From positions 1-37,089 of the forward strand of contig QNVF01000009.1 in NCBI GenBank assembly GCA_004347965.1: a DNA stretch of 37,089 bases, written 5' to 3'. The DNA comes from Candidatus Nezhaarchaeota archaeon WYZ-LMO8 (GTDB lineage Archaea > Thermoproteota > Methanomethylicia > Nezhaarchaeales > WYZ-LMO8). The position numbers were made by a program. Of this stretch, positions 30,001 through 36,000 are shown piece after piece (positions within the stretch are counted from its first letter, which is position 1; every line of letters starts with the position of its first letter).

Positions 30001-33000
30001 TCAAGACAAAGCCCCTTCAACATAGCGTGCAAGAGCTAAGGCGCATCGGTATACAGCCAGACATTATAGTGGCAAGGTGTAAACAGCAGCTTGATGAAGA
30101 TTCAAAAAAGAAGATAGCGCTTTATAGTAACGTCCCCGAGGAAGCGGTTTTCACATCTTACGACGTCGAATGCATATATGAACTGCCAATAGTACTAGAC
30201 GAACAGGGAATGGGCGACTACATATGTAAACGGTTAATGCTAAATGCTTCTAAAGCGAATTGGTCCTCATGGAGAGAGATAGTTAGAAGGCACAAGTTCT
30301 TTAGGTATGAAGTTGATGTCTGCATGTGTGGGAAGTACACAAAGTTAAAGGACTCCTACATAAGCATAATAGAAGCTCTAAAGCATGCAGGAGCTTTCCT
30401 TGAAACAAAGGTCAACATGATTTGGCTCGAAGCTACACAGCTTGAATGCGATAAGGGAATGCCTGAGGAGTATCAGAAGACTCTGAGCTATTGTGATGGC
30501 ATAGTGGTTCTACCAGGTTTCGGTGCACGAGGAGCTCAAGGAAAGATGACCGTCATCGAGTATGCTAGGAAGAACAAGATCCCGTTCTTGGGAATATGCT
30601 TTGGAATGCAATTAGCCGTTGTAGAGTTCGCAAGGAATGTGGTGGGTCTCAAAGATGCAAATACCACTGAGCTTGACCCTTCTACAAACCACCCAGTAGT
30701 AGACCTGCTGCCGGAGCAACACTATGTTAAGGAAATGGGAGGTACGATGAGACTGGGTGCTCAAGCTACTGTTCTTGAACCAGGGACGAAGGTCTATGAG
30801 CTCTATGGAAGACCTATAATATTTGAGAGACATAGACACAGGTATGAAGTAAACCCTGCTTACTGGTCATTGCTTCAGAGCTATGGTATGATTTTCTCAG
30901 GTTATAGCGTTGATAAGCGAAGAGTAGAATTCATAGAGCTCAAGGATCATCCATTTTTCATAGCTACTCAGGCACATCCAGAATTTAAGTCGAGACCTAA
31001 TAGACCGTCGCCTCTATACTACGGCTTCTTAAAGGCTTGTCTAGAGTACAAGCTAAAGAAGTCGATGGCCTCTAATAGCTAATACGAACCCTTGAGAGAA
31101 GAGTAAGCTCTCTCTATCCTGGTTATAAATCTTCTAGCTGCTTCCTCAGGGTTTGACGATCTTGTTATCGCTGAGCCAACAATTACTATCTTGCAACCTC
31201 TCTTAACTAGTTCATCCACGTGTTCGAGCCTTACACCACCTGCTACGGCTACTGGAACCTTTACGCTGTTCACTATTTCCTCTAAGAGCTCCATTTTCTT
31301 TGTCACATCTCTCTCCCTCATCTGCACACTTATACCCATATGGACGCAAATTATGTCGCATCCAAGTCTCTCTACTTCCTTTGCTCTAGATACGGGGTCC
31401 GGCACATTTATGAGGTCGCACATGATCTTGACGTTGTACTTTCGAGCAGCACCAACAGCGTCCTTGATAGTATAGTCATCAGTGGCGCCTAGCACTGTAA
31501 CTATGTCCGCTCCAGCTTCAGCAGCTAACTCAACTTCAAGCCAGCCAGTGTCAAACGTCTTTAAGTCGGCAACTATAGTAGCGTAGGGAAACCTTCTTCT
31601 AAACTCCCTTACTGCCTCTAAGCCAGCAGACTTTATGAGTGGTGTTCCAACTTCAAGAATCTCAGCTCCTCCTTTGTAGCATGCTTCAGCTATGCTTAGA
31701 CCATCCTTCAAGTATCTTTCATCTATCGCTACTTGAAGCTTAGGTCCTTTGTAAAGTGGTTCTAAGCCTAATTGCTGAAGTTTCTTGTCCATAGGTATTC
31801 CATTATAGTTCCAGCCTCTAATCATGTAGTAAGCGTCGAGCAGCCTCGTTAAATCAACTATTTCTCCTTTTGCAGCTCCTTCCTTCAATCCCTCGCTTAA
31901 GAACCTAGGAGGTAGAGTGTCGTGTGATCTATTGAACCCCTCCCTAACGTTAAACAGCCTTTCTAAGTTGTATATTCTCTCTCCTATCTTATAGAACTCT
32001 TCTTCATCAACGTAGAAACCTGTCGCCGTTGTTAATAGCCTTGCGTAATGCGTTGCCTCATAGGCTAATGTCGAGAATAAGGCGAGCATGGTGTACTTGC
32101 ACACCACTAAAGAGTCTATTACAGCTGAGACATCTTGCAATCTCTTAACGAGCTCGGCTTTACCTTCATAGGAGAGGGGGTCTATGTACCTTGGTATGCC
32201 CAGTATCTCACTCATCACTATGTAAGCTCTCAAGTGGCATCCCCCTCTATTGGATGTTGCGTAAGCCAAGGCCATGCCCTTTGCCCCTCGAGGATCGTAA
32301 GCCGGCAGCTCCAATCCTTTCACGTGAGCAGCTATACCCTCAGCACCTATCATCTTCGCTATTCGATCAACTCCCTCACTTGCAATTCTTCCTAGACCCC
32401 TCTTGCAGGCTGTGTCAACGATAAGCTTTAACAGTACGTCAGCATTACCAAAGCTTAGCTTTAAATTTACATCGCCAAGCCCTCTTAAAAGCCCCTTCTC
32501 ATAGCACTCCATTAAGAATCCTATAGTGTTTCCAATTGATATGGTGTCGAGACCTAGCTTGTTGCATAAGTCATTTGCTCGTGCTATGACGTTTATATCT
32601 GATATACCACAGTTAGGTCCCAAGGCCCATACGCTTTCATACTCAGGCCCTGAAGATACTACTTCCTCCTCTCCAACCTTGTATTTTATTGAGCGAGCGC
32701 AAGCTATCGGACATCCATAGCATGCGGTTCTTCTTACCAGCATGGTTTCAGTAATTCTCTCCCCACAAACCTCCTCTGCTTTATCGAAGAAACCTCGTGT
32801 AAAGTTATAGGATGGAAGAACTCCTGCCTTATTCATCAAGTGAACCAGAAACGCTGTGCCATAGCGTCCAAGGCTATCTCCAGTAATTGGGTTCCCTCTT
32901 AAGACCTCAAGTGTCTTCTTAACCTCTTCATTGAATGCTCTCGGGTTTGCAACCTTCACTTCACCGGTGCCCTTGACTGCTATGGCCTTTAACTTTTTAG

Positions 33001-36000
33001 AGCCCATGACTGCGCCCAAGCCGCCTCTACCAGCTGCTCTATGCTTATTGCTTATTATGCAAGCCATTCTAACCTGGTTCTCTCCAGCAGGACCTATGCA
33101 ACACACCTCGACCTTCTCAAGCCCCAACTCTCTTCTTATAGCATCCTCTGTAGCATCGGTTTCAAGTCCCCATATCTTGCTTGCATCTCGAATCTCAGCT
33201 TTACCGTCGTCGACCACCAAGTATACTGGGCTAGAGCTTCTACCTCTGATGATTATGCCGTCAAACCCAGCCTTCTTCAGTTCAGGTCCCCAGGATCCTC
33301 CACAGTTAGAGTCGAAGATCGTGTTAGTCAATGGAGACTTCGATGACACAACGAATCTACCTGATGCTGGAGCTCTAGTCCCTGTGAGCGGGCCGGTCAT
33401 AAATATTAGCACGTTATCCTCGCTCAGTGGATCAATACCCGGCTTTAAAGCGTCAAAGAGAAGCTTTGCTGAATACCCTCTACCGCCTATAAACTTCATT
33501 GCTACGTTCCAGTCGAGATCTACGACCGCTACGTCGCCTTTACTCAAGTCTACCTCTAGTATCCTGCCACTGTAACCACTCAAACCAGGTCCCTAGCGAC
33601 TTTTTATTTCTCCTTATTTTTAAAGTGTAATTGAGGGTTTCTATCGTGAGGGTGAAAGTAGAGGTTTACGGGTCTCTGAGGAATGTGGTAGGCTGGAAGA
33701 GTGTGGAGATGGAGCTGAGCGAGGACTTTACGCTGGGACAACTACTTGATCTTCTTGTGGAGCAGAAGCCTGAGCTTAAGGAATTGATCTTTGAGGGCGA
33801 AAATTTAAGGGATTACTTAAAGGTGTTTGTAGATGGAAGAGATTGTAGGCTTTTAGGTGGTTTAAAAGCGAAACTTAAGGATGGCTCAACGATATCGATA
33901 TTTCCTCCAGCTGGTGGAGGCCTATTTGAAGCTTAGTTTAGTTATGGAATTCTCTCTTTTCTTCTTAAACTTAGGCATTGAGGATCAGGCTTCTCGCTAT
34001 GTCTCTTCGCATCACTTAAACCAACGAATATGGCTTCACAGTACTTGCACTTAAAAACTCTCCCAATGTTTCCCATGCGTATAAGGACTATATCTCTAGG
34101 TATGTCCTCACCGCCCAACCATTAGAACCCTCCTTAACTTCATCTCTTCGAGTTCGTAAACCCCCTTCTTCTCAAGACCGTACCTTCTAAAAGGCTTTGC
34201 TAGGTGTCTCATCGATCTTGGAGGAGGTAGGTATATTCCTTCGACTTCCTTCCTTGATATTCTTGAAGCAAGCTTAGTTGCTTCAGCAGTTTTAAATCCA
34301 CATCTGCTGCATTTATAGCCTCCTCCCCTTCCTAAGCTCTTCAATCTTTTTCGGCATCTAGGACACAACGGGTTCATCTCCATCACCTTCTCCCTTGCTC
34401 TCAGAATCATGAGCTTCTCAAGGTTTATGGAGAGGGCATCTAAGCCTAAGAGTCTTCTAGCTCCTCCATAGACCTCAACTTCATCGCCAACTTCAAGCTT
34501 CTCTGATGCTCGTCTCACATCACCTGATGGCTTGTATGCGACGCAGTACAGCTCCTCTACGCCATCAGATACTTTGAAGACCACGTGCCCCCCGCTTATG
34601 ACTTTAGGCTTCGATGCAACTTCACCCCTTAAGAGTATTGAGGAGTAGGGCTCTACCTCCCTTACTTTCTTAACTCTTAAGTAGTGGTAATCAGTGCCCT
34701 GATTGCTCCTAATAATCAAGTAGCCAATAGGCTTGCTGTACACCTTTAGGAGACTTGAAGCTTTGAGTAGAACTTGAGGGCTCTCTCCTCTTACGCCGTA
34801 GAGTACTGGATCAGGACCTCGAGGTGTTAGAAGTATTCTCCCAGTCTCTGGGTCGATGTTATTGAATGTGTAGGGCCAAGTCTCAAACTCCATGACCCAC
34901 ACGCTATTGTAGTCCAAGAGTCTCGTCTCCTCCTCACATCTGTAAGCTAAGATCTCGAAGGTGTAATCTCCCTCAGTGAGAGAACCTATAGCTGCTAGTG
35001 CACCTATGAGGCCCAGACCACTCCTGGTCTTAACTACTTTGACGTCGTGGCTTTGTGCTAGTTCTAAAGCTTCACGTAGGGCCACAACACGTCTCAAAGT
35101 TTTCTCATAGAAGTCTAAGAAGTCCTTGTGCAATTCTCCATGTAGTATGGCTATTGCTGGATCGCAGTCATGGTAACTTTGAGTATAGCTCTTAAGCATT
35201 AACGCTAGAAGTTCCTCGATCGATGAGATCACATTGCTTTGAGCCATTAACCTTAAGCACACAGCACCATTACCACGAGTCTTCCAAGGAATGTTGGGGT
35301 TCAACCTTGCTAGTATTGGATAGTCGAGTAACTTGACTTTATCATTAAAGCGCCTCATTATCTCCCTTAGAGCCTCAAACAAAAAGTGGGTTGTACATCC
35401 ACCACTTAAAGAGTCTACACTGTCAACACCTATGTGAAGTACATCGTAGGGCAATTCTCAACCCCGAGCTCCTGGGGAACAAGTATATTCTAAGCTTAAA
35501 TACCTGAAGTAGGTCCTCTTTATACGAGGTGCCGGGAGAGGTCGGGTAACTCTCGGGTGCCTTAGCACCTGAGGAAAGTCCCCCTCCATCGGGGAGCGCG
35601 GCGCCGTAAGGTGTCAACCGAGAGGTTGGGGGTAAAGCCTAAGAAACGACACGTCCACTAGCACATGGCTATGATGGGCTTAAAACCTTGAGGACGCTAG
35701 TGGAATCGTTGAAACGTGGCGACCTCCGCGCGGAATAAGGCGTACCGTGATGAGGTCCCCGACGAGCGGTAAGCCGCATAGTCGAATGTTACCTAAACAG
35801 AAGGGGGATTACGAACCTCACCCGGCACCTCATTAGTTGTACATTGAACCTCTACGTTCTTCCTATTGAAGATACAGTCAACCTCATGTGACGTAAACAA
35901 TATATAGGGTCTAATCACTATTCCTTATGCGCCACGGTGGCGGTGTCGAACGGACTATGAGGGGCTTCTCTCGCCCCTAGAATGAGAGTTCGACCTCCAG

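What a model noticed while it worked through the whole genome (the two positions that open the first line are those of the whole stretch)
31079..33583. Aldehyde:ferredoxin oxidoreductase fused to 3-hexulose-6-phosphate synthase
One 834-aa protein joins a complete AOR-type tungsten aldehyde:ferredoxin oxidoreductase (residues 1-607) to a 3-hexulose-6-phosphate synthase domain (614-819). The fusion is conserved in three families of the class and in many other uncultured archaea. It suggests that formaldehyde released by the reverse ribulose-monophosphate reaction is oxidised on the same polypeptide.
Evidence so far: Pfam AFOR_N, AFOR_C and OMPdecase. NCBIfam TIGR03128 HxlA scores 210.6 bits against a cutoff of 200. 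The closest solved structures are 9mqx_D and 1aor_A (E 5.5e-166), ahead of FOR 1b25 (E 3.6e-107). Full-length matches without stops occur in 20 of 31 class genomes. 97 of 120 listed clusters carry all three domains, and the named ones come from Nezhaarchaeales, Methanomethylicaceae, Thermoplasmata, Hod-, Thor-, Prometh- and Heimdallarchaeota. Two literature searches found no description.
(Added by a program. Inside this text positions count along the whole contig: contig position 1 is position 1 of the stretch shown here. "Call 12" and the like, gene names such as g00115 and contig names such as C1 are that model's own, and its searches are not shown. The text may have been shortened before it was handed on; [...] marks where a part breaks off. 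The agent that wrote the report below was given it as the finding of a first reader that could run no searches.)

Follow-up and report, generated by a model that had tools for sequence, protein, structure and literature searches.

The report
Aldehyde oxidoreductase fused to hexulose-phosphate synthase
One archaeal gene joins the enzyme that splits a six-carbon sugar phosphate into a ribose precursor plus toxic formaldehyde to a tungsten enzyme that most likely oxidises that formaldehyde to formate; the fusion is widespread, but its function has not been discussed in print.

Summary
Window 31079-33583, minus strand, is one uninterrupted 834-aa ORF. It consists of a complete AOR-type tungstopterin/[4Fe-4S] aldehyde:ferredoxin oxidoreductase (residues 1-607), a connector of constant length, and a complete 3-hexulose-6-phosphate synthase (614-819). 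All catalytic and cofactor residues I could map are invariant in 71 fused homologues.

It is not an assembly artefact. 42 of 61 class genomes carry it, and contigs from three other studies bridge the junction.

In this genome it is the only HPS. PHI and RpiA are present; transketolase and transaldolase were not found.

Within the class, HPS is fused either to AOR (42 genomes) or to Fae, the known H4MPT-dependent formaldehyde trap (8 genomes), and never to both.

Best reading (about 0.65): the enzyme runs the reverse ribulose-monophosphate step, and its AOR domain oxidises the released formaldehyde to formate with ferredoxin. This would be a ferredoxin-linked counterpart of the oxidative pentose-phosphate pathway. 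The chemistry, the direction and any channelling are inferred, not shown.

The architecture is not wholly new. A 2024 archaeal fusion catalogue lists it in a supplementary table (aor+hxlA, 14 proteins), without discussion.

Verdict: a real, new variant of the known HPS fusions, of moderate to high interest.

The parts
31079..33583 (-). Whole fused gene, 834 codons plus stop, TTG start
   Evidence: The N-terminus aligns from residue 1-2 of solved AORs.
32966..33568 (-). AOR N-terminal domain (residues 6-206)
   Evidence: Pfam AFOR_N, 279.7 bits, profile 1-199 of 199. Arg76 is invariant in 71 fused homologues.
31763..32923 (-). AOR domains 2 and 3 (residues 221-607), holding the catalytic Glu316 and His450
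   Evidence: Pfam AFOR_C, 481.2 bits, profile 3-385 of 385. The genome search gives the same coordinates. Glu316 and His450 align with Glu313 and His448 of 1aor and are invariant.
32699..32722 (-). Cys288-x2-Cys291-x3-Cys295, three of the four [4Fe-4S] ligands
   Evidence: Aligned to the CxxCxxxC of 1aor and 9mqx. Positions. Invariant in 71 rows.
32099..32101 (-). Cys495, fourth [4Fe-4S] ligand
   Evidence: Aligns with Cys494 of 1aor. Invariant.
32057..32077 (-). Insertion specific to the fused clade (residues 503-509, F-x-T-L-x-Y/F-E), just after the fourth Cys
   Evidence: Absent from 1aor and 9mqx. Present in all 34 fused rows. F503 occurs in 34/34 fused rows and 0/49 unfused rows; E509 in 34/34 and 3/49.
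31745..31762 (-). Inter-domain connector (residues 608-613)
   Evidence: Coil in the AF2 model. Its length is nearly constant: 11 residues lie between the L605 and Q617 equivalents in 62 of 71 rows, 12 in 5 rows and 13 in 4 rows.
31127..31744 (-). 3-hexulose-6-phosphate synthase domain (residues 614-819), followed by a C-terminal helix to residue 834
   Evidence: TIGR03128, 210.6 bits against a cut-off of 200. Matches 9lj9_B at 1e-61 and 3ajx_A at 4e-35. D621, E644, D673, K675, D678, H748 and G782-G783 are invariant.
33631..33936 (+). Divergent neighbour: a small ThiS/MoaD-family protein (101 aa) ending ...AGGGLFEA
   Evidence: Pfam ThiS, 49.4 bits. Sequence. A ThiS-family gene also sits beside the fusion in L018, L020 and L027 (divergent) and in L026 (Hodarchaeota, downstream).
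33614..33624 (-). A/T-rich TATA-like box (TTTAAAAATAA), about 30-40 nt upstream of the TTG start
   Evidence: Read by eye. Inference only, not tested.

Best explanation
The gene encodes a bifunctional enzyme for making pentose phosphate without releasing free formaldehyde.

Proposed steps:
1. A separate PHI converts fructose-6-phosphate to D-arabino-3-hexulose-6-phosphate.
2. The C-terminal HPS domain cleaves this to ribulose-5-phosphate plus formaldehyde (the reverse ribulose-monophosphate reaction).
3. The N-terminal AOR domain (tungstopterin plus [4Fe-4S]) oxidises the formaldehyde to formate and passes two electrons to ferredoxin.
4. RpiA converts ribulose-5-phosphate to ribose-5-phosphate.

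The oxidation removes a toxic product and pulls an otherwise unfavourable cleavage forward. The net reaction is F6P + H2O + 2 Fd(ox) -> Ru5P + formate + 2 Fd(red). This is a ferredoxin-linked counterpart of the oxidative pentose-phosphate pathway. It is also the functional twin of the Fae-Hps fusion of methanogens, with a different formaldehyde sink.

Shown: the architecture, intact catalytic residues, conservation, and the genomic context.
Inferred: the substrate of the AOR domain, the direction of flux, ferredoxin as acceptor, and any direct hand-over between the two sites.
For: (1) Both domains are complete. They keep every catalytic or cofactor residue that I could map onto solved relatives, and these are invariant in 71 fused homologues:
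- AOR domain: Cys288/291/295/495, Glu316, His450, Asp346, Asp490, Arg76.
- HPS domain: Asp621, Glu644, Asp673, Lys675, Asp678, His748, Gly782-783.

(2) Formaldehyde is the only aldehyde among the HPS reactants. This follows from established HPS chemistry, not from a call.

(3) In this genome (93% complete) the fused gene is the only match above the HPS cut-off. PHI (181.7 bits) and RpiA are present. Transketolase_N and TAL_FSA gave no match. Reverse RuMP is therefore the only pentose route I can recognise.

(4) In 29 of 42 class genomes that carry the fusion, it is the only HPS match at E<=1e-20. These include the one-contig genomes G003 and G007 and the two-contig genome G019. The gene is therefore the housekeeping HPS, not an accessory copy.

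(5) Either/or pattern in 61 class genomes: 42 have AOR-HPS (families f1, f2, f5, f9), 8 have Fae and HPS in one frame (f3, f6, f7), and none has both. No Fae was found in 0 of 31 f5 genomes or 0 of 4 f2 genomes. In those genomes the AOR domain is the only recognisable formaldehyde sink.

(6) The fusion behaves as one evolutionary unit.
- In the AOR tree, all 35 fused rows lie on one side of a branch (support 61.8). The main fused clade of 29 rows contains no unfused row (SH-aLRT 90).
- The HPS tree shows the same subgroups.
- A 7-residue insertion after the fourth Cys is shared by all 34 fused rows and lacking in the unfused ones.

(7) The connector has a nearly constant length. AF2 gives pLDDT 94.1 and pTM 0.93 for the whole chain. 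By inference, such a pTM is hard to reach unless the two modules are placed confidently relative to each other.

(8) The surrounding genes are housekeeping and nucleotide-synthesis genes: CTP synthase is convergent, with adenylosuccinate synthetase and DHODH nearby. The pairing with CTP synthase recurs in L018.
Against: - No enzymology exists for any member.
- The AOR domain is much closer to broad-specificity AOR (1aor, 8.5e-166) than to FOR (1b25, 5.3e-107). Nothing in the sequence points specifically to formaldehyde.
- This genome also has a free Fae (239 bits), as do 7 of the 9 other f1 genomes. A second formaldehyde sink therefore exists here.
- 10 of the 14 f1/f2 genomes also have a second HPS of about 435 aa.
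- 18 of 31 f5 genomes have a Transketolase_N match. The argument that there is no other pentose route therefore holds for the window's order but not for all carriers.
- None of 22 stand-alone HPS loci that I examined has an AOR gene within about 6 kb. Gene neighbourhood gives no independent support outside the fusion itself.
- I could not obtain model coordinates, so the distance and orientation of the two active sites are unknown.
Confidence: 0.65

Rival explanations
1. The enzyme works in reverse, as a carbon-assimilation module. The AOR domain reduces formate to formaldehyde with low-potential reduced ferredoxin, and the HPS domain immediately condenses it with ribulose-5-phosphate. The exergonic condensation pulls the unfavourable reduction forward. 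The result would be a natural formate-to-RuMP assimilation route.
For: - AOR-family enzymes are reversible and reduce acids to aldehydes with reduced ferredoxin (established knowledge, recalled; no call).
- HPS equilibrium favours condensation (recalled).
- The fixed short connector would suit capture of a scarce intermediate.
- 18 of 31 f5 genomes have a transketolase, which could help regenerate Ru5P.
- A formate-to-formaldehyde-to-RuMP route has been hypothesised for a crenarchaeon, with other enzymes (passages of PMC7143981).
Against: - In this genome, and in 13 of the 14 f1/f2 genomes, no transketolase was found. No transaldolase was found in this genome. The acceptor could therefore not be regenerated in a cycle.
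- The fused gene is the sole HPS in 29 of 42 carriers, which still need the cleavage direction to make pentoses.
- The either/or pattern with Fae-HPS matches a sink for formaldehyde rather than a source.
Confidence: 0.12
2. The protein is a detoxification module for formaldehyde from outside. Both domains act in parallel on free formaldehyde: HPS fixes it and AOR oxidises it, like the assimilatory and dissimilatory branches of methylotrophs. The two sites do not hand anything over to each other.
For: - Both domains use formaldehyde.
- 11 of the 14 sequencing runs that hold the stretch are labelled hot-spring metagenomes, a habitat where reactive C1 compounds are plausible.
- Papers on related archaea read HPS genes as formaldehyde fixation (passages of PMC11291895, and PMC6946796).
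Against: - The gene is the only HPS in most carriers, and in this genome pentoses have no other recognisable source.
- It sits among housekeeping genes, not stress genes.
- The fusion also occurs in Asgard and Thermoplasmata lineages.
Confidence: 0.1
3. The AOR domain oxidises other aldehydes (for example those derived from amino acids, as in Pyrococcus). The fusion serves only co-expression or assembly, for instance by borrowing the HPS dimer interface, with no metabolic link.
For: - The AOR domain groups with broad-specificity AORs.
- The genome has five further AOR paralogues, so the family is used widely.
- No residue signature for formaldehyde is known to me.
Against: - The fused AOR domains form their own clade with a private insertion.
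- The AOR and HPS trees show the same subgroups.
- The connector length is fixed.
- The known alternative fusion partner at the same N-terminal position of HPS is Fae, a formaldehyde enzyme.
Confidence: 0.1
4. The fusion is an artefact: an assembly chimera, a frameshift, or a read-through of two genes.
For: Some databases hold 230-aa 'stand-alone' HPS entries that are 66-72% identical to the HPS domain (P0123-P0125).
Against: - Uninterrupted frames occur in 39 of 61 class genomes, including closed ones.
- Contigs from three other studies bridge the junction without differences.
- 107 of 120 protein clusters carry all three domains.
- P0124 is letter for letter the C-terminal 233 residues of an uninterrupted 835-aa ORF in L020, so it is a gene-calling artefact.
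Confidence: 0.01

Closest known systems
Fae-Hps bifunctional enzyme of methanogens (NCBIfam NF009833; formaldehyde-activating enzyme fused N-terminally to HPS)
   Same: HPS is the C-terminal module. The N-terminal partner is an enzyme that consumes formaldehyde. The accepted role (recalled from Goenrich et al. 2005, not seen here) is ribose-phosphate synthesis by reverse RuMP with immediate capture of formaldehyde. Within the window's class the two fusions replace each other: 8 genomes have Fae-HPS, 42 have AOR-HPS and none has both.
   Different: The partner here is a 607-aa tungstopterin/[4Fe-4S] oxidoreductase, not the 160-aa Fae. Formaldehyde would be oxidised to formate with ferredoxin, rather than condensed with H4MPT, so no H4MPT is needed. 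The protein scores 160.1 bits on NF009833 against a cut-off of 274, over the HPS half only. It works like this family but is not a member.
HPS-PHI fusion of Thermococcales (NF041755; solved as 9lj9_B)
   Same: It contains the closest solved HPS domain (1e-61, residues 8-213 of the domain). It serves the same pathway role, pentose synthesis by reverse RuMP (Orita et al. 2006, recalled; the paper was not held).
   Different: There HPS is N-terminal and fused to the preceding pathway enzyme, and the fate of the formaldehyde is not built into the protein. Here PHI is a separate gene on another contig, and the fusion partner deals with the by-product.
Pyrococcus furiosus aldehyde:ferredoxin oxidoreductase (1aor) and the AOR of 9mqx
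   Same: Full-length alignment at 8.5e-166 and 1.8e-168. The CxxCxxxC...C cluster ligands, Glu313/His448 and the pterin-binding Asp residues are the same.
   Different: - It carries a C-terminal HPS domain.
- It has a 6-7 residue insertion after the fourth Cys that both solved enzymes lack.
- Asp338 of 1aor is Asn here, as in 9mqx.
Pyrococcus furiosus formaldehyde:ferredoxin oxidoreductase (FOR, 1b25)
   Same: Same family and fold, and the named substrate is the one proposed here.
   Different: It is clearly more distant than AOR (5.3e-107 against 8.5e-166). The fused clade is not a FOR.
HPS-RraA-like fusion (NF005442, about 430 aa)
   Same: It gives the best NCBIfam hit for the HPS half (256.2 bits). 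It is present as a second HPS in 10 of the 14 f1/f2 genomes and in named Nezhaarchaeales entries (P0195, P0212).
   Different: The partner domain (PF03737) is different and lies on the C-terminal side. It is not found in this genome.

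Membership tests
AOR family (tungsten aldehyde:ferredoxin oxidoreductases; Pfam AFOR_N + AFOR_C) | Full-length N-terminal and C-terminal AOR domains | tested here: met
   AFOR_N covers profile 1-199 of 199 (279.7 bits). AFOR_C covers 3-385 of 385 (481.2 bits).
AOR family | Four Cys ligands of the [4Fe-4S] cluster (Cys288, 291, 295 and 494 in 1aor; numbering checked against the alignment) | tested here: met
   Cys288, Cys291, Cys295 and Cys495 are aligned and invariant in 71 fused homologues.
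AOR family | Active-site Glu313 and His448, and the pterin-binding Asp343 and Asp489 of 1aor (roles recalled from Chan et al. 1995) | tested here: met
   Glu316, His450, Asp346 and Asp490 are aligned and invariant. Asp338 of 1aor is Asn341 here, as in 9mqx_D.
AOR family | Bound tungstopterin; aldehyde oxidation with ferredoxin | not testable with these tools
   Needs purified protein. A ThiS/MoaD-family gene is a conserved neighbour, which only suggests a role in cofactor supply.
AOR sensu stricto versus the FOR subfamily | Closer to characterised AOR than to FOR | tested here: met
   AOR: 9mqx_D 1.8e-168 and 1aor_A 8.5e-166. FOR: 1b25_A 5.3e-107 and WOR5 4e-71. Membership of FOR is therefore not met.
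YdhV-type aldehyde ferredoxin oxidoreductase (NCBIfam NF007354 equivalog) | Score above the curated cut-off of 868 bits | tested here: not met
   240.2 bits. It is not this equivalog.
3-hexulose-6-phosphate synthase (NCBIfam TIGR03128, equivalog domain) | Score above the curated cut-off of 200 bits | tested here: met
   210.6 bits and 214.7 bits. The margin is narrow.
3-hexulose-6-phosphate synthase | Catalytic and metal-binding residues of the OMPDC suprafamily (Asp on strand 1, Glu of E-x-G-T-P, D-x-K-x-x-D, His of the H-x-G motif, and the GG phosphate loop; roles recalled) | tested here: met
   D621, E644, D673, K675, D678, H748 and G782-G783 align to 9lj9_B, 3ajx_A and 3f4w_A. They are invariant in 24 fused, 5 divergent fused, 14 short, 12 RraA-fused and 5 PHI-fused rows.
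3-hexulose-6-phosphate synthase | The pathway partner PHI is encoded in the same genome | tested here: met
   TIGR03127 scores 181.7 bits against a cut-off of 160, at G000:C16:128-697.
3-hexulose-6-phosphate synthase | Interconversion of hexulose-6-phosphate with Ru5P and formaldehyde | not testable with these tools
   Needs an enzyme assay.
Fae-Hps bifunctional enzyme (NF009833) | An Fae domain N-terminal to HPS; score above 274 bits | tested here: not met
   160.1 bits, over the HPS half only. There is no Fae domain in the protein. It works like this family but is not a member.

The most novel reading that the evidence does not exclude
The enzyme is a natural, reversible bridge between formate and sugar phosphate. 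With strongly reduced ferredoxin, the AOR domain reduces formate to formaldehyde, which the fused HPS domain traps on ribulose-5-phosphate. This would be a ferredoxin-driven formate-assimilating RuMP entry that metabolic engineers have so far had to design. Even in the oxidative direction it would define an unrecognised ferredoxin-dependent oxidative pentose-phosphate shunt: C1 of hexose leaves as formate, and the electrons are saved at ferredoxin potential.
Probability: 0.12. Interest if true: 0.85.

Novelty: new variant of a known kind. Interest (0 to 1): 0.62.

Why it matters
Most archaea make ribose by running the RuMP pathway backwards, which releases one formaldehyde per pentose. Only methanogens with H4MPT have a known built-in answer to this, the Fae-Hps fusion. 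For the others, the fate of that formaldehyde has remained loosely explained.

This fusion is a Rosetta-stone link between the large and functionally vague AOR family and that step:
- It names a physiological substrate for one AOR clade.
- It proposes a ferredoxin-yielding analogue of the oxidative pentose-phosphate pathway in strict anaerobes.
- It is found in lineages of wide interest: Nezhaarchaeales, Methanomethylicales including Methanosuratincola, Bathyarchaeia, Thermoplasmata and Asgard archaea.

It is directly testable, because the genus Methanosuratincola, one MAG of which carries the gene (L027), has cultured members (recalled, not checked here). A natural enzyme that couples formaldehyde/formate redox chemistry to HPS would also interest C1 metabolic engineering.

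Tried and rejected
- Complex prediction with AOR 1-608 against HPS 614-834, each with its alignment, gave no verdict (score 0.00 against a mark of 0.32; controls were not run). It says nothing either way.
- Search for a split aor + hxlA gene pair. In 22 stand-alone HPS loci from class and phylum genomes (5, 17), tblastn found no AOR within about 6 kb. Three other loci turned out to be fused genes cut by contig ends: G056 and G064, plus the fragments of G034 and G050. The catalogue in PMC11237513 reports 3 assemblies with a split form, which I could not locate.
- 'Stand-alone' HPS entries P0123-P0125. P0124 is a gene-call artefact inside an 835-aa ORF. P0123 and P0125 nest inside fused clades and were not resolved further.
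- RNA evidence. One metatranscriptome library (X13) gives contigs 90-99% identical over parts of both domains, one of which bridges the junction. Contigs from an RNA library do not prove transcription, and depth cannot be compared. The bins without cover mean nothing.
- Residues specific to the fused clade. Apart from the insertion at 503-509, only N213 and T518 pass my filter. No signature of the substrate pocket was found.
Orita et al. 2006 (PMC1482999) is not held.
- All ten literature searches found no text that discusses an AOR-HPS fusion. Subscription journals and bioRxiv supplements were not searchable.
Its 70 loci undersample the fused genes and say nothing about absence.

Full report
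**Observation.** Window 31079-33583 holds, on the minus strand, one uninterrupted ORF of 834 codons with a TTG start. The opposite strand is closed by many stops. Pfam finds AFOR_N (residues 6-206), AFOR_C (221-607) and OMPdecase (614-819), each over its whole profile. NCBIfam places the last domain in TIGR03128 HxlA at 210.6 bits against a cut-off of 200. The nearest solved chains for the first 608 residues are the AORs 9mqx_D (1.8e-168) and 1aor_A (8.5e-166), well ahead of FOR 1b25_A (5.3e-107). For the last 226 residues they are the HPS chains 9lj9_B (1e-61), 3ajx_A (4e-35) and 3f4w_A (1.7e-32).

**Integrity of the two enzymes.** In the residue-by-residue alignment with 1aor and 9mqx, the following are all present:
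- the three cluster cysteines of CxxCxxxC (Cys288, 291, 295) and the fourth ligand (Cys495);
- the active-site Glu316 and His450, equivalent to Glu313 and His448 of 1aor;
- the pterin-motif aspartates Asp346 and Asp490.

The functional roles of these residues are recalled from the AOR structure literature; their positions come from the alignment. In the HPS half, the following align with the solved HPS chains: Asp621, Glu644 (E-x-G-T-P), Asp673-x-Lys675-x-x-Asp678, His748 and the Gly782-Gly783 loop. All of these residues are invariant in an alignment of 71 full-length fused homologues that are only 48-94% identical to the query. The HPS set is also invariant in 60 of 60 HPS domains of the other architectures compared. 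Both halves are therefore under selection as enzymes.

**Not an artefact.** A search of 61 genomes of the window's class finds the two domains in one frame in 39. Three more carriers are cut by contig ends: G034 and G050 and G056. That makes 42 of 61, including one-contig genomes. 107 of 120 protein clusters returned for the whole protein carry all three Pfam domains. Contigs from public runs of three further studies bridge the domain junction with no differences (X9, X10, X14). A '234-aa HPS' on record (P0124) is exactly the tail of an uninterrupted 835-aa ORF, so it is a gene-calling artefact.

**Distribution and history.**
- Source names and record titles place the fusion in Nezhaarchaeales (94% identity, presumably the window's own lineage), Methanomethylicales including a Methanosuratincola MAG, Bathyarchaeia, Hecatellales, Thermoplasmata, and Hod-, Thor-, Prometh- and Heimdallarchaeota.
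- In a sample of 301 genomes of the phylum, eight genomes outside the class also carry it.
- When every representative protein is ranked by the AOR part alone, the two best are fused (832 aa at 811 bits; 992 aa at 665 bits), ahead of the first unfused AOR (622 bits).
- In an 84-row AOR tree, the 29 main fused rows form a clade with no unfused member (SH-aLRT 90). All 35 fused rows lie on one side of a weakly supported branch (61.8).
- The HPS tree recovers the same subgroups.
- A 7-residue insertion directly after the fourth cysteine (F503, T505 and E509 invariant) occurs in all 34 fused rows and is lacking in the unfused ones.
- The connector length is almost fixed.

Together this points to one old fusion, inherited and transferred as a unit.

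**Metabolic context.** The genome (1.35 Mb, 93% complete) has no other HPS above the cut-off. It has a separate PHI and RpiA. It has no detectable transketolase or transaldolase. It also encodes five more AOR paralogues, a free Fae, an Fdh-alpha-like protein below the cut-off and McrA. The gene lies among housekeeping genes, next to CTP synthase. In 29 of 42 carriers it is the only HPS match. The fused enzyme is thus the housekeeping HPS, and in the window's order the reverse RuMP route is the only recognisable source of pentoses.

**An either/or pattern.** Within the class, HPS is fused to AOR in 42 genomes (families f1, f2, f5, f9). In 8 genomes (f3, f6, f7) it is fused to Fae, the H4MPT-dependent formaldehyde trap whose fusion to HPS is the textbook solution in methanogens. 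No genome has both. Fae was not found in any of the 31 f5 or 4 f2 genomes. These are family-level patterns across roughly seven lineages, not 61 independent observations. Even so, two different formaldehyde-consuming enzymes occupy the same N-terminal position on the same enzyme, which is the strongest indirect argument for what the AOR domain does.

**Structure.** AlphaFold2 with the 71-row alignment gives mean pLDDT 94.1 and pTM 0.93, with a coil connector at 605-614. By inference from how pTM is computed, a value this high for a 608 + 226 residue chain implies a confidently fixed mutual placement. I could not read coordinates.

**Mechanism and rivals.**
- Best reading (0.65): HPS cleaves hexulose-6-phosphate, and the AOR domain oxidises the formaldehyde to formate with ferredoxin. 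This pulls the cleavage forward, prevents toxicity and saves low-potential electrons.
- Points against: the AOR domain resembles broad-specificity AOR rather than FOR; this genome and most of its family keep a free Fae; many f5 genomes have a transketolase; stand-alone HPS genes show no AOR neighbours.
- Rivals: formate reduction feeding HPS (0.12), parallel detoxification of external formaldehyde (0.10), and an unrelated AOR substrate (0.10). An artefact is excluded.

**Literature.** Ten full-text searches found no discussion of the fusion. I read passages, not whole texts, of:
- PMC11291895, which names only HPS-PHI and Fae-HPS;
- PMC7143981, PMC6783470, PMC3189178, PMC6946796 and PMC10547907, none of which mentions the fusion.

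The exception is PMC11237513, 'Fusion/fission protein family identification in Archaea'. Its supplementary file 2 (part 45; the file is cut in storage) lists cluster 12.2, AFOR_N-AFOR_C-TIM_barrel, annotated K03738(aor)+++K08093(hxlA). It contains 14 proteins in 14 assemblies (Verstraetearchaeota, Nezhaarchaeota, Bathyarchaeota, Thermoprotei and others) and a split form in 3 assemblies. The main text has no occurrence of 'aldehyde', 'AOR', 'formaldehyde' or 'tungsten'. The architecture is therefore catalogued but not interpreted. Subscription journals were not searchable.

**Verdict.** This is a real, ancient and widespread bifunctional enzyme. It is a new variant of the known HPS fusions, with a well-motivated but untested function. 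Interest 0.62.

Noticed in passing
Proteins P0059, P0061, P0064, P0073, P0095 (about 990 aa); also locus L084:452-3418: A longer variant consists of AOR, a truncated HPS-like middle domain, and a full HPS. The two HPS copies are degenerate in complementary ways. The C-terminal copy has lost the second Asp of D-x-K-x-x-D (R/S/S/A/S in 5 of 5), a residue invariant in 60 of 60 other HPS rows. The middle copy keeps that Asp but has lost Asp621, Gln617, mostly His748, and the GG loop. In the OMPDC suprafamily that Asp works in the neighbouring subunit's active site (recalled). This therefore looks like an intramolecular pseudo-dimer with a single composite active site.
   Followed up: partly
window 33631-33936 (+); L018:737-1015, L020:7657-7935, L027:7597-7887, L026:3628-3915: A small ThiS/MoaD-family gene is a conserved neighbour of the fusion from Nezhaarchaeales to Hodarchaeota. 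The window's copy ends ...PPAGGGLFEA, a Gly-Gly followed by a five-residue tail. This suggests a sulfur carrier that is processed, possibly for tungstopterin supply.
   Followed up: partly
L026 (Hodarchaeota) 1178-6853: In this Asgard locus the fusion is followed by the ThiS-like gene and a second, divergent OMPdecase-family gene (221 aa, 41.7 bits). A two-SIS-domain protein and a phosphofructokinase lie on the opposite strand. This is a sugar-phosphate neighbourhood not seen in the window.
   Followed up: no
Supplement of PMC11237513, cluster 12.3: The same catalogue lists another AOR fusion, AFOR_N-AFOR_C-ANL-AMP-binding_C (AOR joined to an acyl-CoA-synthetase-like enzyme), with 7 proteins in Thorarchaeota. 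AOR may have been fused more than once to enzymes that make or use its acid or aldehyde substrates.
   Followed up: no
G000 contigs C2, C5, C44, C60, C4 (L004-L008): The 1.35-Mb genome carries five further unfused AOR-family genes. The C2 copy belongs to the unfused clade nearest the fused ones. The genome also encodes McrA and an Fdh-alpha-like protein (490.8 bits, below the cut-off of 666) that could oxidise the formate.
   Followed up: partly
Class genomes G010, G031, G039, G016, G037, G041, G002, G006, G025, G028: 10 of the 14 genomes of the window's order that were sampled keep a second HPS in a frame of about 435 aa (the RraA-like fusion type, as in P0195 and P0212) beside AOR-HPS. The window's genome and three others of its genus do not. 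What the RraA-like partner does is unclear.
   Followed up: no
window 29604-31082 (+) and L018:3577-5079: CTP synthase lies convergent to the fused gene and overlaps its stop codon by 4 nt in the window. The same pairing occurs in L018. The called ORF begins at profile position 54 of CTP_synth_N, so the true start may lie upstream of the ATG that was called.
   Followed up: no
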